Shown here: piece by piece, positions 4,614 to 30,648 of the stretch
Layout: the number at the start of each line of letters is the position of its first letter
How positions within the stretch are numbered: the stretch's first letter is position 1
Source of the DNA: a bacterium
GTDB taxonomy: Bacteria; SZUA-182; DTGQ01
Length of the DNA: 64,000 nt
Assembly: GCA_023512255.1 (NCBI GenBank)
Contig: JAILZY010000008.1
Location: forward strand, 3,508-67,507
Direction: 5' to 3'
The notes under the pieces: model-generated
The model's database searches: none
The model's input: only the letters and a program-made list of their open reading frames with translations
What the model was told of the DNA's origin: nothing
Translations under genes and position numbers: made by a program

Positions 4614-5054
4614 TCATCGGTAAAGTATCTCGTTAACCATCAGCCAATAGTGCTCGATAGAGCGGATCTTCTGATTAAATTCCTCATAATCTAATGGCTT
4701 GATAACATAGCTATTGGCATGATACTCATAGCATTTTTCCAGGTCGGCCCGATTGCTGGATGTGGTCAGGATAACTACAGGGATATGCTGCAGCTGCGGC
4801 GATTGCTTAATTCGGCGCAAGATTTCAAGCCCATTGATTTTTGGCAGATTGATATCCATAAGGATCAGATGAGGATAGACAAACTCTTCGCTCATCAATT
4901 CGCTCCTCTGATCCATATTCTGATTGAAAAGGTAATTAAACACTTCTTCTCCATCTCTGGCCACGATTAACTGATTATTAAATCCACTCTTTTTTAAAGC
5001 TCTTTCCACCAATTTAATATGAATTGGATCATCCTCAACCAATAGAATATTCAT
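4614..5054 (-). CDS. single-domain response regulator (receiver only)
   Basis: 146 aa. ILLVEDDPIH...LILMDINLPKINGLEILRRIK. Confidence 0.75.
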   Translation of the reverse strand: MNILLVEDDPIHIKLVERALKKSGFNNQLIVARDGEEVFNYLFNQNMDQRSELMSEEFVYPHLILMDINLPKINGLEILRRIKQSPQLQHIPVVILTTSSNRADLEKCYEYHANSYVIKPLDYEEFNQKIRSIEHYWLMVNEILYR

Positions 5055-9814: not shown

Positions 9815-10325
9815 GCCTCTTATACCTCCGAAAGTTTATCGTTTTTTTGATTTTAAATTTTTACCCATTATCACAAAAAAATAAGGGTAAGGCACAAAAT
9901 CCGTAAGGGTCGCTCGAGGCTATTAGATTTCTAAGGGGTGATAAACCGGAAGATGCCTTTTCATCTATAGCATAGAGATATTTTTGCTGTCAAGGGTAAA
10001 AAGTCAGTCTAAATGAGGGGAGGAGAATAAAATCTCAAAAAGGCACAATAAAATCTCTAAGAGAGCGAAAAGTGCGGGGAGTGGGGGGAAAATGGTAAGA
10101 GTCGCTTGAGGTTAATTGAAAAATAGTTTTGAAAAGTCGGCCATCCTCTGTCTGTCTCCATTTCTTTTTTCCGAAGCATACTTGCCAAGATCTCGATAAA
10201 ATCAGAGGAAATATTTACTGTATTTTAACTGCTTTTTAACTTTATTTTATCTCATTTTTTACGCTTTTGCCTTTACCATTTGTCGCTGCTTTCAACTTTA
10301 TTCACAAGATTAGGAGGCTACCCCG

Positions 10326-19213: not shown

Positions 19214-19228
19214 TCAGAATTCCTCTTA

Positions 19229-19337
19229 CGGGTTACGAGTTATGGGTTACGAGTTACGAGTCATTAAACTCACAACTCACAACTCACAACTCTCAACTCG
19301 TAACTCATCATTACCCAGTCCTCATCACTCATCACTT
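19229..19337. repeat. palindromic array of heptanucleotide units (GTGAGTT / ACGAGTT / GGGTTAC, then GTGATGA GTGATGA GGACTG) in the pglZ-brxA intergenic spacer
   Basis: Seen directly. About 14 heptad units; the two halves are approximate reverse complements. Confidence 0.7.
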
Positions 19338-21428
19338 CCCCACGCCTCGCATCTCGATATGTACCAGAGGGACGATGAGTTCCTCGACTGAAACGCCGCC
19401 ATGGCTCACGATGCGCTGCTTTTCCTGGACAAACGTCTGCCGAGCGGGGGCCAGCAGGGCGAGGTAGTCCTCCGGGAGACCAACGGTTCCCCATTCCATC
19501 GCGGCGGGAAAGCGTTCCTTCACCTTGGCGCGTAGGGCCGCGTCGGGATAGATGCGGACCCGTTCGCCGCGCAGGTCTGCCACAGCCCCTTCGGATGGAC
19601 GACCGCAGCCTTCCGCCTCGATGTTGCCATGATCAGAGGTCAAATAAACAAGGAAGCCCCGATCCAAGAGCAGATCGAGGAGTGTGTTCAGATACGGCTG
19701 CTTGGCCCACTGGCGCACCTGGTTGTGCATCCCGGCGGTGCCCATTTCCATCCCATGCATGATCCTGTCGACCTTGTCCACGACCAGCCCGACGACCCTT
19801 GCCTTGGTATGAGAAAGCGCTTCGGAAACGCTTTCCAGGCCGCCGTCGCCCAGACCCTTGAGGTAGACGACCTCGTTTGGTGCGAGGCCCTGATCTGCCC
19901 AGAACTGCGCCCAAAGTGCTGGTTCCTTGTCCGTGGTCTGGATGCTGTTCGGGAAAAAGATGGGAGCCTTGCCGGCAAAAGTTGCCTGGCGTGAGACTGA
20001 GGTAAGCGAAGGAATCCAGGCAAAGACCGCCTGCTCCCGGAATCGCAGTCCGGGCTGCTTTGCGGCAAGTGCTTCGCGGATCACCAGCCATTGGTCCAGG
20101 GCAAGGCCGTCGATCACCAACAAAGCGAGCTTTGTTGGTGATCGCAGTGATGAGTGATGAGGACCGGGTAGTGAGTTGGCCAAAAAGAGCGGGATATGAT
20201 GAACCATGGCCGGCGGATTTGGAGGCAACTGGATAAGTCCTGCATATCGCCTCTGTATCCAAGATAGAAATCGCTGATCGACCCTTCGTGTAAGTGCATC
20301 GATACGATCATTCTGTCTTTCACTCAGTCCCCAGTCCTCATTACTCATTACTTTCAATTCCGCCCATCCGCGGGCAAAGTGGAGCCAGTCCGTGTGCTTC
20401 GCGTCCTTGGCCGGGATGGATGCCTCTAGGCTGTCGATGAGCTTGGCCAGACGACGGGACCTGTCCTCTGTGGGAGCCGCTCTAACGCCGATGCCTACCC
20501 AGGTTTTGGACAGGGTTTCCGCATACTCGTGTGGGACTGGATGCAGCACACCCTCGACGAACAGGTTGTCGATGTAGACCCGGATGTCATGGTGGTCGAA
20601 GGGAAGTTCGACAGGTCCCTTGATGGATAGACCGTAGGGCTTCTCTTCCTCACGAACGACTGCCTGTGCCGTGCCCGGCACGGCAGACAGGCCTGCCTGT
20701 TCCGAGGCTTCGGCAGGCCTGCCGGACGCCCCTTTGGCTGCCTCACGGTCAAGAAAGATCGGCCAGCGCTCTTGGAGGAACGCGAAGAAGGCTTCCCTGT
20801 CCGCCACCAGTGTCTCAAGTGGCCATTCGTCGAAGATGTTAGTCTGGCGCAGAAGCTGGATGAACCGCTCGTCGAGGATAGCAGGGATGCGTTGTCCGCG
20901 GTAGTGACGGCGCAGGAGTACCCGCAGGAGGTCCGATGGCTGTTTGATCAGCTCGGGAGCGATTTCAAAGACGTGCCGGAGGACGAACTCCTTGGTGGCG
21001 TTGTCGCTAAGCTGGCCAGGTGCATGTCGGATCGAAGCCTGATACAAGGCATCGAGATCTCCTCTGTCCAGGGCGCTCACAACCGGGCAGCTTAGGTTCG
21101 GAAAGATTTCGCCGAGGTTGAAGGAGAGTTTGCGACCGGCCTGGAGTAGATCATAGGGTAACCCGCTGAGGTCGCTTGCTTGGGAGCGCAATACCACAAC
21201 GAGGTCCGTGTGCTCCCCGCGGTCCCAGCGGGAGCGAAACTTCGATTCATAGGCGTAGCGGAACGCGATACGGTCTTCGAACGGGATCAGCTCAAAGCCA
21301 CGCTCGCGGATGCCTTCGAGAATGCCTTCTTCGAGGAGCAGTCCGTCCGGATCGGCCACTAGGGTGAGTCGAGCGACCTTCGGAGTGAATTCCTTCAGGA
21401 TTTGATCGCGCCAGCTACTCATGGCCAC
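19332..21428 (-). CDS. pglZ: PglZ-domain protein (alkaline-phosphatase superfamily; BREX/Pgl core component)
   Basis: PglZ signature LALLVIDGLALDQW...SLTSVSR...TSDHGN, about 700 aa. Confidence 0.8.
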   Translation of the reverse strand: MAMSSWRDQILKEFTPKVARLTLVADPDGLLLEEGILEGIRERGFELIPFEDRIAFRYAYESKFRSRWDRGEHTDLVVVLRSQASDLSGLPYDLLQAGRKLSFNLGEIFPNLSCPVVSALDRGDLDALYQASIRHAPGQLSDNATKEFVLRHVFEIAPELIKQPSDLLRVLLRRHYRGQRIPAILDERFIQLLRQTNIFDEWPLETLVADREAFFAFLQERWPIFLDREAAKGASGRPAEASEQAGLSAVPGTAQAVVREEEKPYGLSIKGPVELPFDHHDIRVYIDNLFVEGVLHPVPHEYAETLSKTWVGIGVRAAPTEDRSRRLAKLIDSLEASIPAKDAKHTDWLHFARGWAELKVMSNEDWGLSERQNDRIDALTRRVDQRFLSWIQRRYAGLIQLPPNPPAMVHHIPLFLANSLPGPHHSSLRSPTKLALLVIDGLALDQWLVIREALAAKQPGLRFREQAVFAWIPSLTSVSRQATFAGKAPIFFPNSIQTTDKEPALWAQFWADQGLAPNEVVYLKGLGDGGLESVSEALSHTKARVVGLVVDKVDRIMHGMEMGTAGMHNQVRQWAKQPYLNTLLDLLLDRGFLVYLTSDHGNIEAEGCGRPSEGAVADLRGERVRIYPDAALRAKVKERFPAAMEWGTVGLPEDYLALLAPARQTFVQEKQRIVSHGGVSVEELIVPLVHIEMRGVGK

Positions 21429-24369
21429 CGCCCTCCACCCGAATCACAACCAGCGGCACCATGTCGGGATAGGTGTGAGCCTTCTGATCGAGCTGCTCAT
21501 GGAAGCTCCGCTCCTCTTGGGTCAGGAGGTTCAGGCGATAGTTGCGGACCTGGGGCAGGCCAATTCGCTCGATGGTTTTGCGGCGTGCGGCAAAGGCGTA
21601 GTCTGCCTTCTCACGCTCGCGTGCGATGCGGCCCCGATGCTCTTGCAGGAGCGCTTCGTAGATAGGTTTCCCGTGTTCCTCTGCGGCGCTTTGCAGCTTT
21701 GCTAAAGAGGCTTGGGAGACCTTGGCGTCAAGGACGGACCGGACCTTTATGTTTGCTGCGAGGAGCTGATCCCACACGTGTCTGGCCGTCGGCATATAGA
21801 CCATGCCGTTGTCGGCCAAAAAGAGAGGCATGATCCGCCTGCGGCGGGTCTCCGGTCCTGGGCCCAAGGTCACGGGGCCGTCCCACCGACTCGCGACCCG
21901 CGACCCGTTACTCACAATCGAGATTTGCCACAAGGACCAGATGCCCTGGACCTCCCCGGAGAGACCGGGGATTGATACGATAGGAACCGGCTGGCCCGGC
22001 GCAAAGCGGGGAAGTCGCATGGCCAGTTCGCGAATCCTAGGCTCTTCAAGGGTAAGATGCCGGGCGGTCGGAAGCCTCTCGGCTTCCTTGCCGGTGAAGA
22101 CTACATTCTCGTAGGTCTCACCGTCGGGCCAGGTGAGGTTCCAGCTCTGGCGTCTTTTCTCGGCCTGGCCGCCGTGCGCCTTCAGGTAGCTCACGGTCAT
22201 ACGCTCGATCCAATGGGGCAAGGGGTGAGTCAGCAGCCGCTGGGCTTCGCCAGGCTCCAGATCCTCGGTCGCGCCAAGTACCGATGCGGTCGTGCGCGCC
22301 TCGCGAGCCTGCTCCTGCAAGCGGGCAATCACGCTCTCCACGGATTCCTCCACCTTTTCGGGGTTGAGGATCGCCTCGACATACATCTCGTCGAACATGT
22401 GGCTCGCCTGGGCCGAGTCAAGGACGTCGCCGGTCTTGTCAATGCCGAACTCCTCGAAGATGACGGCGAGCTTCTGCTCCAGTACTTCAAGGACCCGATG
22501 CTCAACCGATCCTTCGAGGACCAAGTTAACCGCACGCACCGTATGAGCTTGGCCGATACGATCCACCCGACCAATCCGCTGTTCGAGTCGCATCGGGTTC
22601 CAGGGGATGTCGTAGTTGATCACCACGTGGCAGAACTGGAGGTTCAAACCCTCCCCGCCGGCGTCGGTGGAGATGAGAATCCGGACATCCTTGGCGAATG
22701 CCTCCTGGGCCCGCTTACGCTCTTCCATGTCCATAGAGCCATTCAGGCAGACGACTGAAAACCCGCGCTCTGTTAGGAACCAACGCAACATCTCTTGGGT
22801 GGGAACGAACTCGGTGAACACCAGTACCTTAAGCTCAGGGTCGCTCTCCTCGGCCTGGAGGCGGTAGAGCCAGTCTAGCAGTGCCTCGGCCTTGGCGTCT
22901 GGTCCGATCTGCTCGCAGCGAGCCGCGGCCTCCAAGAGCATCTTTACCTCGGCGCGCTCGTTCTTGAGCGCCTTGAGGCGGGTGCGAAGCAACACCTCGA
23001 TCTGCTCCTGGCCGTCCAAGTCAGCCCATTCCTCTTCGGAGTTGAGGGGGAACAGGGTCAGTTGTTCCTGAGGTGCGGCGAGCGCCTCGAGCCGCCTTTC
23101 AAGCGTAATGCGGATAGCTCTTGTGCTGGAGACCACAAGGCGCTGCATCAGGATCATCAGAAAGCCGATATAGCTGCGTTTCTCCCGCATGGCCTGGTTG
23201 TAGCCTTCGCGTACGTATTCTGTGACCGCCTCGTAGAGGAGCTGCTGATCGCGGTGCCGCTCTTTCCATGAGACCGGAGCAAGCTGTGTGCGCCGCGGCT
23301 TGAACAGCGGGTTTCCCTCTACGTCAATGGCGCGGCGCTTTTCGGTGCGGATGACATGCGGTTGGACTCGCTCGCGGGTGACGCTGCTCGTGTCCGGGAA
23401 TTCCTGGGTGTCGATAAGGGAAACGAGCCGATGAAAGGCGTCGGTCTTGCCCTGGTGCGGGGTCGCCGAAAGCAGCAGGAGATATGGCGCGGACTCGGCC
23501 AGCCCCTGGCCCAGTTTGAAGCGGGCCACCTGGTCGGTGCTGCCGCCCAGACGGTGCGCTTCGTCCACGATGACCAGGTCCCAGCCGGCGGAGATCAGGT
23601 CCTCGAACCGTTCGCGGGCCGCCGCGCCGCCGCTTCCCGCCGCAGGTTTGACGGAATCCATGGGAACCACAATCTGATCTAATATCCGAAAAGGATTCTG
23701 TGCGTCTCGGCGGAGTACTGAGGACTGAGTGCTGAGGACTAAGCGGTTTTCTTCATACTCAGTCCTTAGTCCTCGTGCCTCAGTCCTGTGGATTGCCGAG
23801 ATGCGCTTCAAGGTGCGGTAGTCTTCCGTAAGAACTTGATGGAACCGTTCATTGAAGTGCATTGCCATCTCGGCAATCCACTGCGTGACCAGCCCCTTTG
23901 GGGCGATGACCAGCGTCCGCTTGACCAGTCCGCGAAGCTTAAGTTCCCGCATAATGAGCCCAGCCTCGATGGTCTTGCCCAGGCCGACCTCGTCCGCCAG
24001 GAGATAGCGCACCCGGTCGCTGCTAATGGCGCGGGATAAAGCATGGATCTGGTGAGGAAGCGGAATGACGGAGGACTCAATGGGTGCGAGCAGGACGTCC
24101 TGTGTCAGTGCATCTGCTACCCGCGCGGCCGCAGCAATGTAGGCGATATGGTCCGCCGAACCGGTACCTGCACTATCCAGTGGTTTAAGTCTGGAAGCCG
24201 CCGGGATGCGGACCACCGAGTCGCTCCCGGGCAGCCAGACATGGCAGGTCGTCTCGCCCCAGAGCGTCTGGACTTCGATGACCTGACAAAGCTGCCCGTG
24301 GTCCGGGGAATACAACCACGAATGAACACGAATGGACTCAAATAAGTTCATAGGACAAGTCTCTCCCAT
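21415..24369 (-). CDS. SNF2-family superfamily-2 helicase (BrxHII-like)
   Basis: Motif I LADEVGLGKTIEAGL; DEAH box IVDEAHRL; C-terminal helicase domain; 984 aa. Confidence 0.8.
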   Translation of the reverse strand: MGETCPMNLFESIRVHSWLYSPDHGQLCQVIEVQTLWGETTCHVWLPGSDSVVRIPAASRLKPLDSAGTGSADHIAYIAAAARVADALTQDVLLAPIESSVIPLPHQIHALSRAISSDRVRYLLADEVGLGKTIEAGLIMRELKLRGLVKRTLVIAPKGLVTQWIAEMAMHFNERFHQVLTEDYRTLKRISAIHRTEARGLRTEYEENRLVLSTQSSVLRRDAQNPFRILDQIVVPMDSVKPAAGSGGAAARERFEDLISAGWDLVIVDEAHRLGGSTDQVARFKLGQGLAESAPYLLLLSATPHQGKTDAFHRLVSLIDTQEFPDTSSVTRERVQPHVIRTEKRRAIDVEGNPLFKPRRTQLAPVSWKERHRDQQLLYEAVTEYVREGYNQAMREKRSYIGFLMILMQRLVVSSTRAIRITLERRLEALAAPQEQLTLFPLNSEEEWADLDGQEQIEVLLRTRLKALKNERAEVKMLLEAAARCEQIGPDAKAEALLDWLYRLQAEESDPELKVLVFTEFVPTQEMLRWFLTERGFSVVCLNGSMDMEERKRAQEAFAKDVRILISTDAGGEGLNLQFCHVVINYDIPWNPMRLEQRIGRVDRIGQAHTVRAVNLVLEGSVEHRVLEVLEQKLAVIFEEFGIDKTGDVLDSAQASHMFDEMYVEAILNPEKVEESVESVIARLQEQAREARTTASVLGATEDLEPGEAQRLLTHPLPHWIERMTVSYLKAHGGQAEKRRQSWNLTWPDGETYENVVFTGKEAERLPTARHLTLEEPRIRELAMRLPRFAPGQPVPIVSIPGLSGEVQGIWSLWQISIVSNGSRVASRWDGPVTLGPGPETRRRRIMPLFLADNGMVYMPTARHVWDQLLAANIKVRSVLDAKVSQASLAKLQSAAEEHGKPIYEALLQEHRGRIAREREKADYAFAARRKTIERIGLPQVRNYRLNLLTQEERSFHEQLDQKAHTYPDMVPLVVIRVEGGGHE
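23714..23790. repeat. ~77 bp imperfect-palindrome repeat element built from GAGGACT-type heptads, in-frame inside the helicase gene
   Basis: The 3' 30 nt are identical (one mismatch) to the copy at 28617-28696. Translated in-frame as RTEARGLRTEYEENRLVLSTQSSVL. Confidence 0.7.
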
Positions 24370-24731
24370 TCGAGTTTTGGCTTTTTGAAATTGAGGATAA
24401 GGCCGACTTTGAGCTGGGTAATCTTCAGGTAGTTGAGCATCTGGCCACGTTCAACATCCGTAATACGGTCAATCGTCTTGGCGTCGACCACGATCTTATC
24501 AAAGGCAATCAAATCGGGAATGTAATCGCCCACCTTGACACCTTTGTAAATTACATCGAAGCGCGGCTGCTGCTTGTAAGGGATTCCTCTCAGGCCAAAT
24601 TCAACAACGAGTGCATTTTCATACGGCTTTTCCAGCAACCCATGCCCAAGCGTATTGAACACCTCCATGGCGCAGCCAACGATCTGGAATACCTCATCTT
24701 TGAACAGTAATTTGTGTTCCTTCGTGTCCAT
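24348..24731 (-). CDS. GxxExxY-family small protein (PD-(D/E)xK nuclease-like fold)
   Basis: 127 aa. VGCAMEVFNTLG matches the GxxExxY motif, with downstream D/E-x-K-type residues. Overlaps the helicase start by 22 nt. Confidence 0.65.
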   Translation of the reverse strand: MDTKEHKLLFKDEVFQIVGCAMEVFNTLGHGLLEKPYENALVVEFGLRGIPYKQQPRFDVIYKGVKVGDYIPDLIAFDKIVVDAKTIDRITDVERGQMLNYLKITQLKVGLILNFKKPKLEWERLVL

Positions 24732-24740
24732 TCGTGGTTC

Positions 24741-25667
24741 TCACTCCTCCCCCGCTCGAGTAACCGCCTGGTCGTACCACATGAGGAGCTTGGGGTCTTT
24801 CTGGAGGACGTTCTCAGGAATTTTGCGGGCCACAGCGATGATGGTGGCATAGTCGCGCTCCTGCCATGCCTTCTTGAATCCGGCCCGGACCGCCTCAAGG
24901 CGGAAGACCTTCAGTTTCCGCTGGCTGGAAGCCAGCGCCACACTGGAAGCCAGCGCCACATATTCTTGAAATTCCTTGAGCAGGGACCGCTCGCGCAGCT
25001 TCTCCAGGTCGATGGCCTTGTTCGGGTCAGGCACATACCAGCGGTCCTTGGCTTCGCGAAGCAGTCTCGGGTCCTGAGTCTCGAGTCCCGAGTCTTCTGA
25101 TCCGTCACCCGCGACCCGCGACTCGCGACTGATCAACTCCCGCCATGTAGCACTCTGCTTCATCCACGAGACGATTTGTTTTGGAATAGGCCCCTTGCCG
25201 TCATAGCGCAAGAAGTTCTGCTCCAGCAGCTCGGAAAGCTCCAGCAGCCTCTCGTGCTTATGCCAGCCGCTGATCTCCTTGAGGAATTGGGGGTGCAGTT
25301 CCTGGAAGGTCTGTGGCTTCCGTGTGAGCTGCTGTTTGAGCCACTCGATGGCTGAGGCCTCATCCGTGACAAAGAGCGGAAGCTGCACAAAGAGCGGAAG
25401 CTGCACAAAGAGCGGAAGCTGCAGCAACTTTCGGACAGCCATCCGCTTTTTGTCATACTCAGCCACCTGCTCGGGCAGGAAGTACATCCCGTCCCGTTCT
25501 GGGAAACGCTGGGCCAGCCCAGCGTAAAACTCCCCAGCGGATATCGGAACCATCACCCCACGCTGCACATGAAAGGCCACCATGCGGTCAAAGAGTAGGT
25601 AATTCTGGCGCTCGGCGATGATTTCCAAGGTGGAGCCTGCATCTTGCAGGCTATCTTCTTGCTGCAC
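24741..25667 (-). CDS. hypothetical protein, possibly the frameshifted C-terminal portion of the PglX-like methyltransferase
   Basis: Follows methyltransferase piece 2 after 10 nt in another frame. The three pieces sum to about 1255 aa (PglX-like size). Contains two in-frame 18-bp tandem repeat arrays. Confidence 0.35.
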   Translation of the reverse strand: MQQEDSLQDAGSTLEIIAERQNYLLFDRMVAFHVQRGVMVPISAGEFYAGLAQRFPERDGMYFLPEQVAEYDKKRMAVRKLLQLPLFVQLPLFVQLPLFVTDEASAIEWLKQQLTRKPQTFQELHPQFLKEISGWHKHERLLELSELLEQNFLRYDGKGPIPKQIVSWMKQSATWRELISRESRVAGDGSEDSGLETQDPRLLREAKDRWYVPDPNKAIDLEKLRERSLLKEFQEYVALASSVALASSQRKLKVFRLEAVRAGFKKAWQERDYATIIAVARKIPENVLQKDPKLLMWYDQAVTRAGEE

Positions 25668-25677
25668 CGGCTGACTT

Positions 25678-26910
25678 TTATTTTTGTTTAGCCTGCTGGA
25701 AGCAGGCTCTACTTTGCTTAGCCTGCTGGAAGCAGAACTCAGCCTGCTGGAAGCAGGCTCTCACAAATACCGGCAGTTGCTTCAGGTGAGTGCGGACAAA
25801 GTCCCAAACGCCTTGCTCCGTCCCCGCTTCGAGCTTGAAGCGTTCCTCTAGGCCACCGTTTGGCTTGTAGCAGGAGATGATGAGGTCCTGTTTGACCGCG
25901 GATGCTGAAGTTACCTGCTTGAAAGAACCTTGCTGCTTGTCCAGCGTGCGCACATCAGCAATGACAAAGCACGCGGCCTGCAGGGCCTCCTGGATCGCGT
26001 TCCAGACCGCGTTCTTGGAGTTGTGAAATTCCACCGTCATCCAGTGGCCCGGCTTGAGCACCCGGTAGTATTCTTTGAAACATTCGGTCATGAGCTTCTG
26101 GTATTCTGGCAGCCCTTTGCCCTGGGCGGTGTTTTCGATGGCCTCAGGCTTGTTGTTGGTAAAAACCTTAAGCCACGCCTCCCAGAGGAAATTCAGCTCA
26201 GAATACATCAGGTTGCCACCAAAGGGTGGGTCGGTGAAGATGTAGTCGATGGATTCGCCTGGTATTGGGAATACTGAAGAATCACAACAACCAATGGATG
26301 CCACCTTGATCTCGCCAAACCGTGGAGCTTCATGTTTTATGAGTCTCTGCAATTTACCGGTAAGAATGTAACCGGAAGACACTTCTACCTGTTGCGAACC
26401 GACGTATAACGTGCCACTAAGATACCGGTTTACTTGCGAAAAATGAGTAGGGACATACCGCGATATTTTCGCGAATCCCAGCGCCGCATACTGTATGAAA
26501 AACAAGCTCAATTTGTGCCGTGCCTTAAATGCCTTATCATACATCCCCCCCAGCACCCACAGATTCCGTCTGGTATAGAAATGGTGCACATGGGTGATGC
26601 CGTGGGAAACTTTAGGTTGCTCCGTGTTATAGCCCTCCGGCATACGATCCGTCGGAAACCAATATGGTATTTCCATCTGCTCAATTTTTTCGATAAGTGC
26701 TAGATCGAAGGCGTCGGGCGTCTTTTCGAATCGCTGCTTTCCCACGCTATAGTTGATGAGCACCGGCACTTGTTTGGCTTGCCTGATGGTCTGATTAATA
26801 GCCTTATCAAATTTGGTAACCCAAGCCCGTTCCATTAGGCGTTTGGTGAGCAGGGTGCCGCAGTGGGGGCAGGGAAATTTGTCATGGATTTTGCCCGCTT
26901 CCTTATTCAC
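25678..26910 (-). CDS. DNA methyltransferase fragment (amino-methyltransferase catalytic motif DPPF), piece 2; in-frame continuation of 26920..28533 across a TAG
   Basis: Catalytic motif IV IFTDPPFGGN. Begins with a CPHCG half zinc ribbon. Starts at GTG three codons after the TAG of the upstream piece, in the same frame. Confidence 0.7.
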   Translation of the reverse strand: MNKEAGKIHDKFPCPHCGTLLTKRLMERAWVTKFDKAINQTIRQAKQVPVLINYSVGKQRFEKTPDAFDLALIEKIEQMEIPYWFPTDRMPEGYNTEQPKVSHGITHVHHFYTRRNLWVLGGMYDKAFKARHKLSLFFIQYAALGFAKISRYVPTHFSQVNRYLSGTLYVGSQQVEVSSGYILTGKLQRLIKHEAPRFGEIKVASIGCCDSSVFPIPGESIDYIFTDPPFGGNLMYSELNFLWEAWLKVFTNNKPEAIENTAQGKGLPEYQKLMTECFKEYYRVLKPGHWMTVEFHNSKNAVWNAIQEALQAACFVIADVRTLDKQQGSFKQVTSASAVKQDLIISCYKPNGGLEERFKLEAGTEQGVWDFVRTHLKQLPVFVRACFQQAEFCFQQAKQSRACFQQAKQK

Positions 26911-26919
26911 GGCAGCCTC

Positions 26920-28533
26920 CTAGAAGACTACCTCTTGGGTGCAGTTTGGGCAGACAAAGACATCGGACCAGACGGTATAGTTGATTTTTCCCAGTGGAGC
27001 CGGCTTCCAGCCGGCTGAAACCAATTCTTTTGCTACATACCGCCATTCATAATCCAGCGGCCGCCTTACCAGGCCAGCTTTGACCGGGTTATGGTTTACA
27101 TAAGCCAGTGTGGCCATCAGTTCTTTGCTATCGCGGATGATTCGATCATAGCTTTCCGTCTGCCATACTGTAGTCCCAGTTTTTTGCTCCAATTTATTCA
27201 CTTCATTGGCTGAATAGCTTTTAACACTGTGAAGAATCTCAGATAGATCCCAGGGTGCGTCTTTTTGTTTTTCGAGAGGTTTGGCCACGATATGAACATG
27301 ATCTGGCATAACCACCGCAGTGAACACCTTCCAGCGCTTTTGATCCCAGAATAAAATCGCATCCAGAACAATTTTCCTGGCTGGTTCACTGAGAACGCGC
27401 AGGTCGTGTGTTCTGAATGTAACAAAATAAGTGGCCCCGGGAACCTGGATGTGGGGTAGGTTATCTTTTCTGAAGGTTGATTCGTTTGTCTGAAATGGAT
27501 TGCAGGGCTCGAAGTTTATTGCTGATATAAGCCTGCTGGAAGCAGGCTCTACATGCAGGGTCTCATACATCCAGCCGCATTCGGCTTCCACTTCCTTCAG
27601 GATGCGCCTGGCTTCACGCTCAAAGGCCACGACATCCACCGGGGTGTTGTAGTTATAGGCGATGAAGGTGGCAGCAGGCGACAGGTCATTCAAGACAGCC
27701 CGCCGCGCGCCAAGTTTCGAAAATGGTTTCCAGATGGTTTTGCCGCTCTCTTCGGTTTCCTTCTGATAGATCACCCCGTCCTTATCCACCCGGTAGCCCA
27801 GCGCCTCGACCGCTGCTTTATCCCCGCACATCTGCGCTGCTACGCCGGTCATCCCTGTCCCGCAGAAGCCGTCGAAAACGATATCCCCAGGCTCGGTGTA
27901 ATGCAGGATGTAGCGCATTACGGCCTTGTGCGGCACCTTAGTGTGGTAGGAGTGGGCATTGTAGATCGGATCGTTCTTGCCCTCGCTCACATCCGCGGCA
28001 AAGGGCTCGCGGTGATAGGGTTTATCCACAAAGGCACACGAAGCCCCACCAAGAGATTTCTCTTGTTCGTACATCTTCGTGTCCTTCGTGGATTCCCAAT
28101 ACCTTACCATGTCGGCGATGAAGGGATTGGGGCAGGCGGTGTAGTAGGGTGGGTCGGATAGTGCCAGGATGTCCTCGTCGCTGCCGTGCGGGAAGCCGAC
28201 CTCGTCCTTGTAAAGGCTGAGGAGGTCTCGGGGCACGGGTCGTGAGTCGCGGGTCGATGATGCAGCGTGGGCGATGCGTCCTGCCAGGTAGCGGATTTGC
28301 TCGTCATTGCCCAGCAGCCAATGCTCGAGGGATTTCAGCCGCTGGTAAGTATCTTCGAGACTCGTAAAGGGGACGGAAAGCTTTTCTCGCATCTCCTGCA
28401 AGCCTGCTCGCAAAATGCCGAGAAAAGCTTTCTGCCGCTCTTCGTCGTTCGGGAACGTTAGCCCCAAGCAGGTCACGGGTTTATGGTGTTTGATTTCTGG
28501 TTTCTCGTTGTCGAATAGGATGTCCATGTTCAT
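26920..28533 (-). CDS. DNA methyltransferase N-terminal module fused in-frame to an IS200/IS605-type Y1 HUH transposase domain, piece 1
   Basis: Methyltransferase motifs SDPPYY (aa 127-132) and FDGFCGTGMTG (aa 220-230). Y1 transposase domain at aa ~362-495 with HUH motif PDHVHIV and catalytic-Tyr motif VWQTESYDRIIRD. C-terminal CPNC half zinc ribbon, then TAG. Confidence 0.75.
   Translation of the reverse strand: MNMDILFDNEKPEIKHHKPVTCLGLTFPNDEERQKAFLGILRAGLQEMREKLSVPFTSLEDTYQRLKSLEHWLLGNDEQIRYLAGRIAHAASSTRDSRPVPRDLLSLYKDEVGFPHGSDEDILALSDPPYYTACPNPFIADMVRYWESTKDTKMYEQEKSLGGASCAFVDKPYHREPFAADVSEGKNDPIYNAHSYHTKVPHKAVMRYILHYTEPGDIVFDGFCGTGMTGVAAQMCGDKAAVEALGYRVDKDGVIYQKETEESGKTIWKPFSKLGARRAVLNDLSPAATFIAYNYNTPVDVVAFEREARRILKEVEAECGWMYETLHVEPASSRLISAINFEPCNPFQTNESTFRKDNLPHIQVPGATYFVTFRTHDLRVLSEPARKIVLDAILFWDQKRWKVFTAVVMPDHVHIVAKPLEKQKDAPWDLSEILHSVKSYSANEVNKLEQKTGTTVWQTESYDRIIRDSKELMATLAYVNHNPVKAGLVRRPLDYEWRYVAKELVSAGWKPAPLGKINYTVWSDVFVCPNCTQEVVF
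27049..27450 (-). other. embedded IS200/IS605-family Y1 (HUH) transposase-like domain within the methyltransferase ORF
   Basis: GATYFVTFRT...PDHVHIV...TVWQTESYDRIIRD...HNPVKAGLV carries all hallmark motifs of TnpA(IS200)/RAYT. Confidence 0.7.
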
Positions 28534-29072
28534 TCCGTCCCTGGCGTAACAATTAAAAAATCGTGAACTGGATATCGTCTGTATTCTGGGTGATCCGGCG
28601 TCGCATAGACCAAATAGAGTGATGAGGACTGAGTGATTAGTGCTGAGTCTTCGGACGTCTCTGACTCAGTCCTCAGTCCTCGTGCCTCAGTCCTGATTTT
28701 GCCGCTCCAAGCCGCGACCACCGTCTTGTTCCGCGAGAGCCTCTGCAGAAGCCGCAACGGGTCCTGCTTGAGAGAGACATCGAAGAGGACCTCGATGTTG
28801 TCCAGCAAAACCACATCGGCTGCGGATGCGCCCACGATATCTGCAAGGAGGCGGGGCAACTGCAAGGCCCGCTGGCGCTCGGTGAGGTCGAGCATTCGCC
28901 GGGAAAGCTCGAGGTTGACGTTGACCAGAGGAGCCGCCGTGCGCTCATGGACATCCTGGAGAGCGGCGGTCTTGCCCGCACCAGCCGGGGCCACCAACAT
29001 GACAAGCCGGTGGTACAGCTCGGCAGCCTGGCCAATTCTCTTTATGACTCTATCGGCGAGTGGCTCCGCCAT
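28530..29072 (-). CDS. P-loop NTPase, BrxF-like (BREX type 3)
   Basis: Walker A LVAPAGAGKTAAL. Small size and first position in the cluster fit BrxF. The likely start is MAEPLADR at 29072; the track ORF extends to 29132. The C-terminus carries an in-frame repeat-element insertion. Confidence 0.5.
   Translation of the reverse strand: MAEPLADRVIKRIGQAAELYHRLVMLVAPAGAGKTAALQDVHERTAAPLVNVNLELSRRMLDLTERQRALQLPRLLADIVGASAADVVLLDNIEVLFDVSLKQDPLRLLQRLSRNKTVVAAWSGKIRTEARGLRTESETSEDSALITQSSSLYLVYATPDHPEYRRYPVHDFLIVTPGTE
28617..28696. repeat. second copy of the same palindromic heptad element, in-frame near the C-terminus of the BrxF-like gene
   Basis: Shares GATGAGGACTGAGTG...ACTCAGTCCTCAGTCCTCGTGCCTCAGTCCTG with the copy at 23714-23790. 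Encodes IRTEARGLRTESETSEDSALITQSSSL. Confidence 0.7.
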
Positions 29073-29097: not shown

Positions 29098-29241
29098 CTA
29101 ATTCGCCCGCGTTTTTTCAAGCCAATGGTCAATGGCTCCTTTCTGGAAACGCCAGTGTCGGCCGATTCTCTGGGAGAGGATCTTGGCTTCCCGAACGAGC
29201 TTGTAGAGTGTTGACTTCGGCATTTTCAGGTAGGCGGCCAA
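29098..29241 (-). CDS. small excisionase/AlpA-family HTH DNA-binding protein
   Basis: Found by manual translation; not in the ORF track because under 60 aa. LSIEELAAYLKMPKSTLYKLVREAKILSQRIGRHWRFQKGAIDHWLE matches the excisionase-family HTH consensus. The start codon is uncertain: TTG at 29241 or ATG at 29223. Confidence 0.5.
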   Translation of the reverse strand: MAAYLKMPKSTLYKLVREAKILSQRIGRHWRFQKGAIDHWLEKTRAN

Positions 29242-30031
29242 CTCTTCGATGCTCAGTACATCACCTGGTTTTTTTCATCCATCAAGCGCATCTTTCTGGT
29301 CTTAACAAGCTCATCTTTCTGGTCTTAAGGCAAAGTTCGACCCAGCATGCCTCATATCAAGCTCATAATTTAAAGTTATTGGTAGTTGATGTCAAGCGCT
29401 TTTGAAGCGCAGAGGGGCCTAAACCCAACATTTGTGACACCAAGGGCACTAAGAGTTTAACCCTCTTCACCAAGATGTTCCCCATCTTTAAATTTGAAGG
29501 ACGATTTACTACCTCCTCCCTTAAACTTTAATAAATTATGAGAACATGGTTAATATTTAGTTTAACACTTTTTTCCGATAAAGTCTATTTTTCAAGGCAG
29601 ACATAAAAAGGGGGAGGAGCCGGAAAGAGGAGGGCTAGGCTTTGTGGTCATTACCTTTTTTGTTCATTACTCTTCCGGCTCTCTCCCAAGGGGAAGTAGG
29701 GAAGCGCTCCGTGCAGGGGAAAAGTTATTTGGGCAAGGGACGATCCTTGTGATCGTCCCATTTCAAGCGCACCCTGCAGGGGAAAAAAGAGCTATCTTTG
29801 ATCCTCATTTAAGAGGATCTTTGAGATGAGCGAGCTAATGTTATCTTATCCGAAATTATCATCCCCTCGGAATCCCCTGATGGTCCCGCACTGTGTGGGT
29901 GGACTGTGGCTTACTGCTTCCGGTGTCTGCTCTTAGGCCTAATATTCCTCCCTACCTAGAGATCCCGAGGGGTAGCATCTGAAATAACTATCGCTGCTCA
30001 TTATTCGGATTCTAAAAAATCCTCAACCCGG

Positions 30032-30391
30032 TCAATTTCGCAACTTCCGGCACCTGATTCGACAGCCAGGCATGACCATTGTCGGATTAGGTAAATCTCC
30101 CGCCAGATAAGCCGAGATGACCTCCTCCACATTTCCAGCAATGAAAGATATTATCTTGATCCCATATGCAGTCAGTAAATTGGCCAGGGGTTTGGAAATA
30201 GCTCCACAGAGCAGCGTTTCCACCCCCATCTCGGATAATCTGGCTGCCCTTCTTACCGGGTCATGCTCATCCAACCTCTGGCTACTTTTGGCAACAATAG
30301 TTCCGTTTTCGATATCTAAAAGGAGAATCTGCCGGGAGACATCAAACACCGGCGAAATCCTCCCATTCCAAATTGCTAAGGCTGTTCTCAT
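30032..30391 (-). CDS. dinitrogenase FeMo-cofactor-binding domain protein (NifX/NifB-C-terminal-like)
   Basis: MRTALAIWNGRISPVFD...LLCGAIS...GIKII matches the Nitro_FeMo-Co family. The track ORF extends upstream to 30568, but the domain starts at the Met near 30391. Confidence 0.6.
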   Translation of the reverse strand: MRTALAIWNGRISPVFDVSRQILLLDIENGTIVAKSSQRLDEHDPVRRAARLSEMGVETLLCGAISKPLANLLTAYGIKIISFIAGNVEEVISAYLAGDLPNPTMVMPGCRIRCRKLRN

Positions 30392-30648
30392 AGGGAACAT
30401 TTTTCTCCGATTTGATGCTTTCTTAATATGAGTAATAAGCATCCGATATGCCATCTGAGGAAGAATAAAGGTACAAGGAGAGATAAAGCAGTCAAATAAA
30501 CGACTTGTCGTTTTGGCAGATGGCAGCCGCCACCTTATTGAGTAGCAGAAAAGCAACTTTATAGACAAAATGAAGTCGCTTTTTTGCTCCTATTCCTACT
30601 AATGGCTGGGCAACCGTCTCTTGTCTGTTTTTTTCAGTCTGTTCTTTT

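What the first reader, a model, noticed from the sequence alone, without database searches (positions are those of the whole stretch)
20112..20165. Perfect 14-bp palindrome plus heptad repeat inside the pglZ coding sequence
GATCACCAACAAAG-CGAG-CTTTGTTGGTGATC (20112-20143) is a perfect 14-bp stem with a 4-nt loop. It is followed by GCAGTGATGAGTGATGAGGAC (the same GTGATGA/GGACT heptads as the intergenic array). It is translated in-frame as PGPHHSSLRSPTKLA immediately before the conserved LLVIDGL motif. A 14-bp perfect palindrome is very unlikely by chance in 64 kb. It looks like another in-frame insertion of the element family, possibly at a domain boundary of PglZ. A related motif, GAGTAATGAGGACTGGGGACTGAGTGA, at 20322-20353 encodes MSNEDWGLSE.
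Basis: seen in the sequence. Interest (0 to 1): 0.55.

Follow-up and report, generated by a model that had tools for sequence, protein, structure and literature searches.

The report
Self-complementary linker insert in BREX-3 PglZ
A real 34-base palindrome inside a phage-defence gene (pglZ) consists of the codons of a conserved protein strand plus an inverted copy of those codons sitting in an inserted linker; it is inherited by a whole sub-lineage of this defence island and is most likely a by-product of DNA copying errors, not a new machine.

Summary
The palindrome is real and longer than reported: two 16-nt arms (20111-20126 and 20129-20144) with a 2-nt spacer. Shuffled sequence gives at most 11. 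It lies in a type 3 BREX pglZ gene on the minus strand, directly before the first strand of the PglZ phosphatase domain.

One arm is the conserved ALLVID codons. The other arm encodes RSPTK and is part of a 5-6 residue insertion that most PglZ homologues (668 aa, "group A") lack. A sub-lineage ("group B", about 25 distinct sequences) shares the insert.

In group B the two arms change together. There are three different perfect 16-nt versions and one perfect 12-nt version. About half of the lineages have let the hairpin decay while the gene stays intact.

The palindrome is unique in the window. The adjacent heptads belong to a 24-nt motif with three copies around pglZ. Period-7 repeats are confined to this GC-rich island.

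Best reading: an in-frame heptad motif plus an inverted copy of the neighbouring codons, made and kept perfect by template switching. Protein function is probably unaffected.

A selected mRNA or DNA hairpin is not excluded.

The parts
19332..21428 (-). pglZ of a type 3 BREX system (698 codons from GTG). It is intact and the alkaline-phosphatase-like motifs are conserved.
   Evidence: PADLOC PDLC02558 E = 2e-299. NCBIfam BREX_PglZ_3, 849 bits. Pfam PglZ domain at residues 433-606. Alignment A1.
20129..20144 (-). Upstream (5') palindrome arm on the coding strand, CGATCACCAACAAAGC. It encodes RSPTK(L). This is the linker-insert arm that group A lacks.
   Evidence: insert LRSPT mapped to 20133-20147.
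20127..20128 (-). 2-nt spacer, the 2nd and 3rd bases of the Leu codon CTC. It is TC, TA or TT in relatives.
20111..20126 (-). Downstream (3') palindrome arm on the coding strand, GCTTTGTTGGTGATCG. These are the codons of A-L-L-V-I-D, the first strand of the PglZ domain with its conserved Asp.
   Evidence: PorX alignment.
20147..20170 (+). Copy 2 of the 24-nt heptad motif (GTGATGAGTGATGAGGACCGGGTA). It is read on the opposite strand as ...LPGPHHSS...
20171..20327 (-). Divergent middle segment of pglZ, about residues 368-419, lying between the two inverted heptad motifs. It is only 38-50% identical to group A, against 85-98% elsewhere. Synonymous divergence within group B is about 1.4.
20328..20351 (-). 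Copy 1 of the 24-nt heptad motif (GTAATGAGTAATGAGGACTGGGGA), encoding VMSNEDWG. It is an inverted repeat of copy 2.
19312..19335 (-). Copy 3 of the 24-nt heptad motif. It carries the pglZ stop codon and opens the intergenic heptad array.
19226..19311 (-). Intergenic heptad array between pglZ and brxA. (TTACGAG)n faces (AACTCAC / CTCGTAA)n, which forms a hairpin.
   Evidence: (I2).

Best explanation
The feature is a composite, in-frame, replication-derived insertion in the permissive linker just before the PglZ phosphatase domain. An ancestor of one BREX-3 sub-lineage acquired it.

Step 1 (shown). A copy of an island-specific 24-nt heptad motif occupies the linker. It sits in the one orientation and frame that stays open, and it encodes SLxSPHHSS.

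Step 2 (shown as sequence, inferred as mechanism). The next 16 nt are the reverse complement of the codons that follow them (ALLVID), which gives the peptide RSPTK. This is what an intramolecular template switch produces: the nascent strand folds back and copies itself.

Step 3 (inferred). With a 2-nt spacer the repeat stays a hotspot for quasi-palindrome correction. A tolerated change in the constrained arm (synonymous, or conservative such as Leu/Val) is copied into the unconstrained linker arm. Different lineages therefore carry different but internally perfect palindromes. Where correction has not happened, the repeat decays.

The hairpin can form in single-stranded DNA and in the mRNA. 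Nothing shows that the cell uses it. The protein simply tolerates a few extra linker residues.
For: - One arm is native and the other is inserted. Group A reads ...CGC ACC GCC AAG ATC GCA CTG ATC GTG GTG GAT. Group B reads ...CGA TCA CCA ACA AAG CTC GCT TTG TTG GTG ATC GAC.
- Complementarity is arm-specific in different lineages:
  - CGATCACCAACAAAGC / GCTTTGTTGGTGATCG (window, L091; also L081-83, where the spacer TA extends the palindrome to 17+17)
  - CGATCACCAGCAAAGC / GCTTTGCTGGTGATCG (L085, L086, L090)
  - CACGACCAAAGC / GCTTTGGTCGTG (L001, L002)
  - CAATCA... / ...TGATTG (L098)
- In each single-pair case the change in the domain arm is synonymous (Leu TTG/CTG, Ile ATC/ATT, Ala GCT/GCC). 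The partner change alters a linker residue (Thr/Ala, Arg/Gln, Lys/Arg).
- Pair counts: 86-92% of cells are paired, against 25-57% when partners are slid. Four pairs show changes on both sides. 0/500 shuffles reach the observed pairing.
- Symmetry is at DNA level. The loop-closing bases are complementary too, and L081-83 carry a perfect 34-nt palindrome. There is no excess of sense-strand G.U over antisense-type mismatches, 12 against 9.
- The hairpin is dispensable:
  - Energies in group B run from -26 down to about -9 kcal/mol, against a group A baseline of -10.3 +/- 3.7.
  - L096 and L110-113 lack the hairpin.
  - Most homologues lack the insert.
  - All of these have intact genes.
- A second inverted repeat in the same island is sharpened relative to group A in the same way: 28376-28389 / 28419-28432 is a perfect 14 nt, against 6 nt.
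- Published work shows that template switching preferentially turns imperfect inverted repeats into perfect ones in Proteobacteria. It also homogenises arms inside coding DNA with multi-residue replacements (PMC5941160, PMC8604942, PMC7202029).
Against: - No tool here can observe a template switch. The mechanism is inferred from the pattern.
- Selection for a hairpin would give the same compensatory pattern.
- The covariation statistics are moderate: 5/500 and 7/500 shuffles reach the observed double changes and score. The tool warns that related sequences can reach such values without any structure.
- Hairpin haplotypes are scattered on a tree built from the flanks, so recombination prevents counting independent events.
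- The heptad motifs and the palindrome have 2.5-4 times lower synonymous divergence than the segment between them. The predicted fold of the whole 276-nt module is unusually stable, z = -6.5. Both would also fit a conserved nucleotide-level function.
- The model does not explain why period-7 repeats accumulate in this island lineage.
Confidence: 0.5

Rival explanations
1. Selected nucleic-acid structure. The 15-bp hairpin, together with the adjacent long-range helix formed by the two inverted 24-nt heptad motifs, is a functional element of the pglZ mRNA or of single-stranded DNA. It could be an RNase III or other processing site, a translational pause at the domain boundary, or an element that sets the PglZ dose within the operon.
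For: - Compensatory changes on four pairs, and three distinct perfect versions.
- The 276-nt RNA folds into exactly this two-helix architecture: -111 kcal/mol, z = -6.5.
- The heptad helix is paired in 86% of cells across 25 sequences.
- dS in the heptads and palindrome is 0.32-0.59, against 1.4 in the enclosed segment.
Against: - There is no Rfam match and no terminator or promoter at the site.
- The long-range helix shows conservation but almost no covariation, with one double change.
- The low dS is shared by the ordinary flanks, 0.2-0.7.
- Roughly half of the group B lineages have hairpins no more stable than the group A background, and their genes are intact.
- There is no strand bias in wobble-type mismatches.
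- Perfect DNA symmetry, including the loop-closing bases, is more than an RNA hairpin needs.
Confidence: 0.22
2. Insertion of a small non-autonomous palindromic mobile element, in the manner of Rickettsia palindromic elements or REPINs. The REP-associated tyrosine transposase embedded in pglXI of the same island might mobilise it. On this reading the palindrome is the end of the element.
For: - The heptad motif has three copies around pglZ.
- A related heptad hairpin of about 75 nt is inserted in frame in both brxHII (23713-23787) and brxF (28617-28694). The two copies share an identical 20-mer and the same peptide, RTEARGLRTE.
- Heptad-coded inserts show presence/absence mosaics at four or more sites of BrxHII among related islands.
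- A RAYT domain (NF047646, 99.3 bits) sits in pglXI.
Against: - The palindrome arms occur only once in the window.
- One arm is the native conserved coding sequence, so it cannot have arrived with an element.
- There are no target-site duplications and no GTAG or CGTC tag.
- L051 has the RAYT but no heptads.
- The hairpin actually associated with the RAYT is a different sequence, GCCTGC-TGGAA-GCAGGC.
- A peptide search for the RTEARGLRTE element found nothing elsewhere.
Confidence: 0.13
3. Recombination module. The inverted heptad motifs and the palindrome are conserved anchors. They allow the divergent middle segment of pglZ to be inverted as an ON/OFF switch, or to be exchanged between islands.
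For: - There is a sharp mosaic: residues 361-440 are 38-50% identical to group A, against 85-98% elsewhere.
- The middle segment has dS of about 1.4 between more homogeneous borders.
- Tree discordance suggests recombination.
- An inversion between the motifs would introduce two stop codons and then return to frame.
Against: - None of the fetched loci that match PglZ shows the inverted arrangement.
- None of the ORFs scanned in or beside the island matched a recombinase or invertase family.
- Programmed inversions known in BREX affect pglX of type 1 systems and come with a recombinase (PMC9881135).
- There is no spare cassette or template repeat in the window.
Confidence: 0.06
4. Chance, codon constraint or an assembly artefact.
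For: None beyond the fact that the window comes from a metagenome-assembled genome.
Against: - Shuffles never exceed 11 nt.
- The same palindrome is present in many independent assemblies.
- Group A encodes a near-identical strand (IALIVVD) with no palindrome.
Confidence: 0.01

Closest known systems
Quasi-palindrome (inverted-repeat) template-switch mutations and arm homogenisation (E. coli thyA/lacZ hotspots; surveys in Proteobacteria and yeast: PMC7202029, PMC5941160, PMC8604942)
   Same: - A short-spacer inverted repeat inside coding DNA.
- One arm is ancestral and the other is its reverse complement.
- The arms change in concert, giving clustered amino-acid replacements.
- Perfect repeats persist longer than independent drift would allow.
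   Different: - Here the event created or extended an insertion in a linker, rather than only converting existing bases.
- It sits next to a heptad motif.
- It is traced across a horizontally mobile defence island rather than within one species.
- The mechanism is inferred, not observed.
Rickettsia palindromic elements (RPEs) and other MITEs inserted in frame (review PMC10969869)
   Same: - Short hairpin-forming repeats lie inside genes without breaking the frame and add a tolerated peptide.
- There are several copies in different genes of the island (brxHII, brxF, brxA, pglZ, pglXI).
   Different: - RPEs are about 100-150 bp dispersed copies of defined families across a genome.
- Here the units are 24-80 nt, built from period-7 repeats, and confined to one island.
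- The palindrome in question is single-copy and half native sequence.
REP/REPIN sequences with their RAYT transposase (PMC3116915, PMC3733652)
   Same: - The island holds a RAYT domain (NF047646).
- It also holds a 17-nt hairpin repeated four times, three of them exact, one of them at the RAYT junction.
- Small palindromes are abundant.
   Different: - REPs are extragenic, multi-copy and carry a GTAG or CGTC tag.
- The pglZ palindrome is intragenic, single-copy and untagged, and it does not resemble the RAYT-linked hairpin.
- The RAYT also occurs without heptads (L051).
Heptanucleotide tandem repeats of bacteria (cyanobacterial STRR such as CCCCAGT, from my own knowledge; TAACTGA repeats of Beggiatoaceae, PMC4679880)
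   Same: - Period-7 units occur, including (GGGGACT)n, which equals the complement of CCCCAGT in another register.
- Arrays often face their complement and form hairpins.
   Different: - The known repeats are mostly intergenic and genome-wide.
- Here they are largely intragenic, in frame, restricted to a BREX-3 island carried by anaerobes, and inherited with it.
Simple-sequence-repeat phase variation and programmed inversions in defence genes (pglX of BREX/Pgl; PMC9881135)
   Same: Repeats lie inside genes of a BREX system. A unit of 7 would shift the frame if its copy number changed.
   Different: - Copy number at this site is constant across about 25 sequences and the frame is always open.
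- No invertase is present and no inverted variants were found.

Membership tests
Template-switch (quasi-palindrome) product | Inverted repeat with a short spacer, able to form a hairpin in a single strand | tested here: met
   16-nt arms with a 2-nt spacer. ssDNA -17.6 kcal/mol, z = -7.6.
Template-switch (quasi-palindrome) product | One arm is orthologous to the ancestral sequence; the other differs from the ancestral state and equals the reverse complement of the first | tested here: met
   Comparison with group A and with L110-type sequences.
Template-switch (quasi-palindrome) product | Concerted (homogenising) changes of both arms in related lineages | tested here: met
   Three perfect 16-nt variants and one perfect 12-nt variant. 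Four pairs show changes on both sides. Independent events cannot be counted because of recombination.
Template-switch (quasi-palindrome) product | Elevated, exonuclease-sensitive conversion rate at the site | not testable with these tools
   This needs a genetic reversion assay.
In-frame palindromic mobile element (RPE/MITE-like) | Several near-identical copies at unrelated sites | tested here: not met
   The palindrome arm is found only at 20112-20125 and 20130-20143 and has no hit in viral contigs; a 601-base stretch of pglZ around it has no match in plasmids. The neighbouring 24-nt heptad motif does meet this feature, with three copies.
In-frame palindromic mobile element (RPE/MITE-like) | Insertion relative to orthologues without loss of the reading frame | tested here: met
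   +5-6 residues against 668-aa homologues, with the ORF intact.
In-frame palindromic mobile element (RPE/MITE-like) | Both ends of the element are foreign to the target gene (terminal repeats or target-site duplication) | tested here: not met
   The downstream arm is the conserved ALLVID coding sequence.
REP/REPIN mobilised by a RAYT | RAYT gene in the vicinity | tested here: met
   NF047646 REP_Tyr_transpos, 99.3 bits (cut-off 80), in the ORF 26920-28533.
REP/REPIN mobilised by a RAYT | Multi-copy palindrome related to the repeats that flank the RAYT | tested here: not met
   The RAYT-linked hairpin is GCCTGCTGGAAGCAGGC. The pglZ palindrome has no similarity to it and no further copies.
REP/REPIN mobilised by a RAYT | Heptad motif and palindrome co-occur with the RAYT across islands | tested here: inconclusive
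   L007 has both. L051 has the RAYT but no heptads. Most group B loci do not reach pglXI.
Curated structured RNA family | Match to an Rfam covariance model | tested here: not met
   Only two sub-threshold miRNA-model hits, both on the intergenic heptad array.
Contingency locus (repeat-number phase variation) | Repeat copy number varies among close relatives and switches the frame | tested here: not met
   The same number of units and an open frame in all aligned group B sequences. Variation is by substitution.
Programmed inversion switch | Site-specific recombinase nearby, and both orientations found | tested here: not met
   No recombinase family matched among the scanned island and flanking ORFs. 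Only one orientation in all loci.
Diversity-generating retroelement target | Template repeat and reverse transcriptase; hairpin downstream of the variable region | tested here: not met
   There is no second copy of the variable segment in the window, and no reverse-transcriptase family among the ORFs scanned.

The most novel reading that the evidence does not exclude
The two inverted 24-nt heptad motifs and the abutting palindrome may form a conserved, structured border module around an anciently diverged segment of about 50 codons in PglZ. On this reading a sub-lineage of BREX-3 islands uses nucleotide-level hairpins inside its genes. They would either exchange or protect a variable, possibly phage-interacting, PglZ segment, or tune PglZ dosage through mRNA processing. 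That would be a cis-element class not described for BREX.
Probability: 0.12. Interest if true: 0.7.

Novelty: new variant of a known kind. Interest (0 to 1): 0.38.

Why it matters
As a stand-alone palindrome this is a textbook-style example of how inverted-repeat template switching can write new residues into a protein linker and keep a perfect hairpin alive in coding DNA. That is useful as an illustration but not surprising.

The context is more interesting. One horizontally spread lineage of type 3 BREX islands carries period-7 motifs and small hairpins in frame in most of its genes. Its sister lineage, more than 85% identical in protein outside the divergent segment, has none. The lineage also carries a REP-associated transposase domain fused into the methyltransferase.

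If any of these hairpins is functional, it would point to cis-regulation or cassette exchange inside BREX genes. If not, it shows how much selfish or mutational clutter a defence operon tolerates.

Tried and rejected
- **RNAalifold consensus** on the 108-column alignment did not return the hairpin. Gappy distant rows dominated, so I tested the structure explicitly instead.
- **AlphaFold model** of PglZ from a 22-sequence alignment was unusable (mean pLDDT 44.7). The domain boundary therefore rests on Pfam coordinates and the PorX alignment.
- **Strand test.** The hairpin has 12 sense-type G.U against 9 antisense-type A.C mismatches, which is not informative.
- **Inversion switch.** No locus has an inverted middle segment. 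Inversion would give stop codons. No recombinase is present.
- **DGR.** There is no template repeat.
- **Promoter or terminator** at the palindrome: none.
- **Rfam:** nothing relevant.
- **Palindrome, the 20-mer of the heptad hairpin, or a 601-base stretch of pglZ in viral contigs or plasmids:** no hits.
- **Peptide search** for the RTEARGLRTE heptad element: the first query was too short. A 43-aa query found no protein sharing enough words.
- **Link between the RAYT and the heptads:** weakened by L051, which has the RAYT without heptads.
- **Source contig look-up** gave only a 2.7-kb Logan contig and no taxonomy.
Full report
**The observation**

The window reads CGATCACCAACAAAGC-GA-GCTTTGTTGGTGATCG at 20111-20144. 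The repeat finder reports 16-nt arms, 100% complementary, with 2 nt between them (I6).

In 20 dinucleotide-preserving shuffles of the 64-kb window, the longest perfect inverted repeat with a spacer of 8 or less was 8-11 nt. The strand folds into a 15-bp stem with a tetraloop:
- as RNA, -29 kcal/mol for the 81-nt piece that holds the hairpin, z = -4.35
- as DNA, -17.6 kcal/mol for a 56-nt piece, z = -7.6

The following GCAGTGATGAGTGATGAGGAC and the motif at 20322-20353 are as described. The translation ...NSLPGPHHSSLRSPTKLALLVIDGL... is correct for the minus strand.

**Context**

The ORF 19332-21428 (-) is a type 3 BREX PglZ (PADLOC E = 2e-299; NCBIfam BREX_PglZ_3, 849 bits).

It sits in an island at about 18.4-29.1 kb. 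The island holds BrxA, PglZ, BrxHII, a PglXI split into three ORFs, and BrxF. Its G+C is 51-61% in 2-kb bins, peaking at 59-61% over pglZ and brxHII. The flanks are mostly 42-50%.

Period-7 repeats are confined to the island:
- 58 period-7 hits inside against 3 outside
- GAGGACT at 1.12 per kb against 0.04 per kb

**Homologues**

BREX-3 PglZ is extraordinarily conserved across phyla. It is 80% or more identical in Syntrophus, Dehalococcoides, Synergistota and Hydrogenedentes.

Most homologues are 668 aa and read FLARQMGEDRxxKIALIVVDGL here (group A). A minority (group B) read FLANSLLSPHHSSLRSPxKLALLVIDGL, and upstream VMSNEDWGLSE. Against Syntrophus buswellii the window has +5 residues (LRSPT) at 20133-20147.

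The Pfam PglZ domain begins at residue 433, the K of KLALLVIDG. In the alignment to the solved PorX PglZ domain the insert precedes the first strand...KVFFILIDN. The insertion and its domain-boundary position are therefore real.

**Anatomy of the palindrome**

On the coding strand the sequence is CGA TCA CCA ACA AAG CTC GCT TTG TTG GTG ATC GAC.
- The downstream arm (20111-20126) is the codons of A-L-L-V-I-D, the conserved strand with the metal-binding Asp.
- The upstream arm (20129-20144) is their reverse complement. Read in frame it gives R-S-P-T-K.

The arm sequence occurs nowhere else in the window. It has no match in IMG/VR contigs, and a 601-base stretch of pglZ around it has no match in plasmids. 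The palindrome is therefore not a copy of a dispersed element. Half of it is the gene itself.

**Evolution of the palindrome**

I collected 74 metagenomic loci with a group B-specific peptide profile, plus four group B loci from GTDB genomes. This gave about 25 distinct sequences.

The palindrome is shared and its arms change together:

| Loci | Upstream arm / downstream arm | Note |
|---|---|---|
| window, L091 | ...AACAAAGC / GCTTTGTT... | perfect 16 nt |
| L081-83 | same arms, spacer TA | perfect 34-nt palindrome |
| L085, L086, L090 | ...AGCAAAGC / GCTTTGCT... | Thr to Ala paired with a synonymous Leu change |
| L098 | CAATCA... / ...TGATTG | Arg to Gln paired with synonymous Ile |
| L001, L002 | CACGACCAAAGC / GCTTTGGTCGTG | shorter, perfect 12 nt |

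Explicit pair counting gives the following:
- 86-92% of cells are paired, against 25-57% for slid partners.
- Four pairs have changes on both sides.
- 0/500 shuffles reach the observed pairing.
- 5-14/500 reach the number of double changes.

The tool's own caveat about related sequences applies, so I treat this as moderate evidence. It is strengthened by the qualitatively distinct perfect variants.

There is also evidence against an essential role:
- Hairpin energies in group B range from -26 to about -9 kcal/mol. The group A background for the same 42-nt frame is -10.3 +/- 3.7.
- Several lineages (L007, L093, L102) have decayed to background, and L096 and L110-113 lack the hairpin. All have intact genes.
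- Sense-type G.U and antisense-type A.C mismatches are equally common, 12 against 9. Nothing therefore points to the mRNA strand in particular.

**The heptads**

The 24-mer GTGATGAGTGATGAGGACTGGGTA has three copies:
- at the pglZ stop codon (19312-19335, -)
- next to the palindrome (20147-20170, +)
- upstream (20328-20351, -)

Copies 1 and 2 are inverted repeats that enclose about 157 nt. A 276-nt RNA is predicted to pair them and to place the palindrome hairpin right beside that helix (-111 kcal/mol, z = -6.5). Across group B this helix is 86% paired but shows only one double change.

Related heptad hairpins of about 75 nt lie in frame in brxHII (23713-23787) and brxF (28617-28694). They share an identical 20-mer and the peptide RTEARGLRTE.

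Group B islands carry many such arrays. Group A islands carry none (L004; L051 also lacks them), and neither does the host flank sampled in L001. Among group B islands, heptad-coded inserts in BrxHII show a presence/absence mosaic at four or more sites.

The heptad part of the finding is thus a member of a genuine, island-specific repeat family.

**Mosaic structure**

The window's PglZ is 85-98% identical to group A everywhere except residues about 361-440, where it is 38-50% identical. That stretch is bounded by heptad copy 1 and by the palindrome.

Within group B, synonymous divergence varies by region:

| Region | dS |
|---|---|
| enclosed segment | about 1.4 |
| heptad motifs | 0.32-0.46 |
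| palindrome | 0.59 |
| ordinary flanks | 0.2-0.7 |

The enclosed segment is therefore the outlier. It is old and partly hypervariable. The heptads and palindrome share the divergence level of the recombining backbone. A tree of the flanks does not sort the hairpin variants, which indicates recombination.

**Mechanism**

I commit to a composite origin.
1. A heptad motif copy occupies the linker. This is shown.
2. The next 16 nt are an inverted copy of the downstream codons. The sequence is shown. A fold-back template switch is inferred.
3. Continued quasi-palindrome correction copies tolerated changes (synonymous or conservative) of the constrained arm into the free linker arm. This is inferred.

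Several observations fit this model:
- DNA-level symmetry
- arm-specific perfection
- synonymous changes on one side with amino-acid changes on the other
- decay in some lineages
- dispensability of the hairpin
- a second case in the same island, where the inverted repeat at 28376-28389 / 28419-28432 is a perfect 14 nt against 6 nt in group A

Published surveys report exactly this behaviour of inverted repeats (PMC5941160, PMC8604942, PMC7202029).

A selected hairpin remains a serious rival. A mobile-element origin of the palindrome itself is unlikely. Inversion, DGR, terminator or promoter, and artefact explanations failed their tests.

**Comparison with known systems and verdict**

It works like a quasi-palindrome template-switch product placed next to an in-frame repeat insertion of the RPE kind. 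It is not a member of the RPE/MITE or REP/REPIN families, because it is single-copy and half native sequence. It has no Rfam family. It does not behave as a contingency repeat.

The finding is real and explained in outline. On its own it is of modest interest. The heptad- and hairpin-laden BREX-3 sub-lineage around it is the part worth a further look.

Noticed in passing
window 26990-27545 (within ORF 26920-28533, -): A REP-associated tyrosine transposase (RAYT) domain is inserted in frame inside the BREX-3 methyltransferase PglXI, between ...WMYETLHV and GKINYTVWSDVF... (NF047646, 99.3 bits, cut-off 80; HUH and Tyr motifs present). The same in-frame insert occurs in L007 (67% identity) and L051 (50%).
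   Followed up: partly
window 25635-25651, 25691-25707, 25742-25758, 27531-27547: A 17-nt REP-like hairpin, GCCTGC-TGGAA-GCAGGC, occurs three times exactly plus one variant, all inside pglXI. 0.09 copies are expected by chance. One copy lies exactly at the 5' junction of the RAYT domain (peptide EPASSRL), and the same holds in L007 and L051.
   Followed up: partly
window 24741-28533: PglXI is split into three ORFs. The first junction reads ...GTC TTC TAG GAGGCTGCC GTG..., that is, a stop, a Shine-Dalgarno-like GGAGG and a GTG start. This looks like a genuine split rather than an error. The third ORF is in another frame, and REP-like hairpins flank that junction.
   Followed up: partly
window 23713-23787 (brxHII) and 28617-28694 (brxF): Two copies of a heptad hairpin element of about 75 nt are inserted in frame in two different genes. 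They share the 20-mer AGTCCTCGTGCCTCAGTCCT and the peptide RTEARGLRTE. The 20-mer is also present in L089 and L091. Group A orthologues lack it.
   Followed up: partly
window 20658-20720 (pglZ residues 237-257): A 21-residue in-frame insert, RPAEASEQAGLSAVPGTAQAV, is encoded by GC-rich hairpins (GGCCTGCC...GGCAGGCC). Similar PAEASAQAG-type peptides sit at three different positions of PglZ in other homologues (P0010, P0013, P0015, P0100). This suggests a second small element that inserts in frame.
   Followed up: partly
window 28376-28389 / 28419-28432 (pglXI N-terminus): A perfect 14-nt inverted repeat, both arms coding (QKAFLG / REKLS), lies around a 7-residue insert. Group A has only a 6-nt repeat here. 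It looks like another inverted repeat sharpened in this lineage.
   Followed up: partly
window 25369-25423 and 24925-24960: There are in-frame 18-nt tandem duplications in the PglXI C-terminal ORF: QLPLFV three times and VALASS twice. A related 17-mer (2 mismatches) lies in inverted orientation at 26994-27010, next to the 3' end of the RAYT domain.
   Followed up: no
window 20111-20352; pglZ residues about 361-440: There is a sharp mosaic. This stretch is 38-50% identical to group A PglZ, against 85-98% elsewhere. Its core has dS of about 1.4 among group B sequences. Residues about 366-380 are hypervariable at all codon positions.
   Followed up: partly
window 29133-30648: No BrxC/PglY-sized ORF lies between brxF and the neighbouring sigma-54-type activator gene. 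The island appears to lack the BREX ATPase and may be incomplete.
   Followed up: no
window 24710-24736; L086 4472-4498 / 4891-4919; L094 4547-4573 / 4968-4994; L007 7893-7920 / 9958-9987: Decamer tandem repeats (CGCGAATAAA-like) occur as inverted pairs upstream of pglZ in several group B islands. Only one array is seen in the window. They may be protein-binding iterons.
   Followed up: no
window 19312-19336: The pglZ stop codon lies inside a heptad motif (GGA AAG TGA TGA GTG ATG AGG...). In this orientation the motif has stop codons in two of its three frames. In some homologues heptads also supply an N-terminal extension (MTTDSSLITQSSSPRAE).
   Followed up: no
whole PglZ family: BREX-3 PglZ proteins are 80% or more identical across very distant phyla (Syntrophus, Dehalococcoides, Synergistota, Hydrogenedentes, Acidobacteriota, Planctomycetota). 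This implies recent and wide horizontal spread of this island among anaerobes.
   Followed up: no
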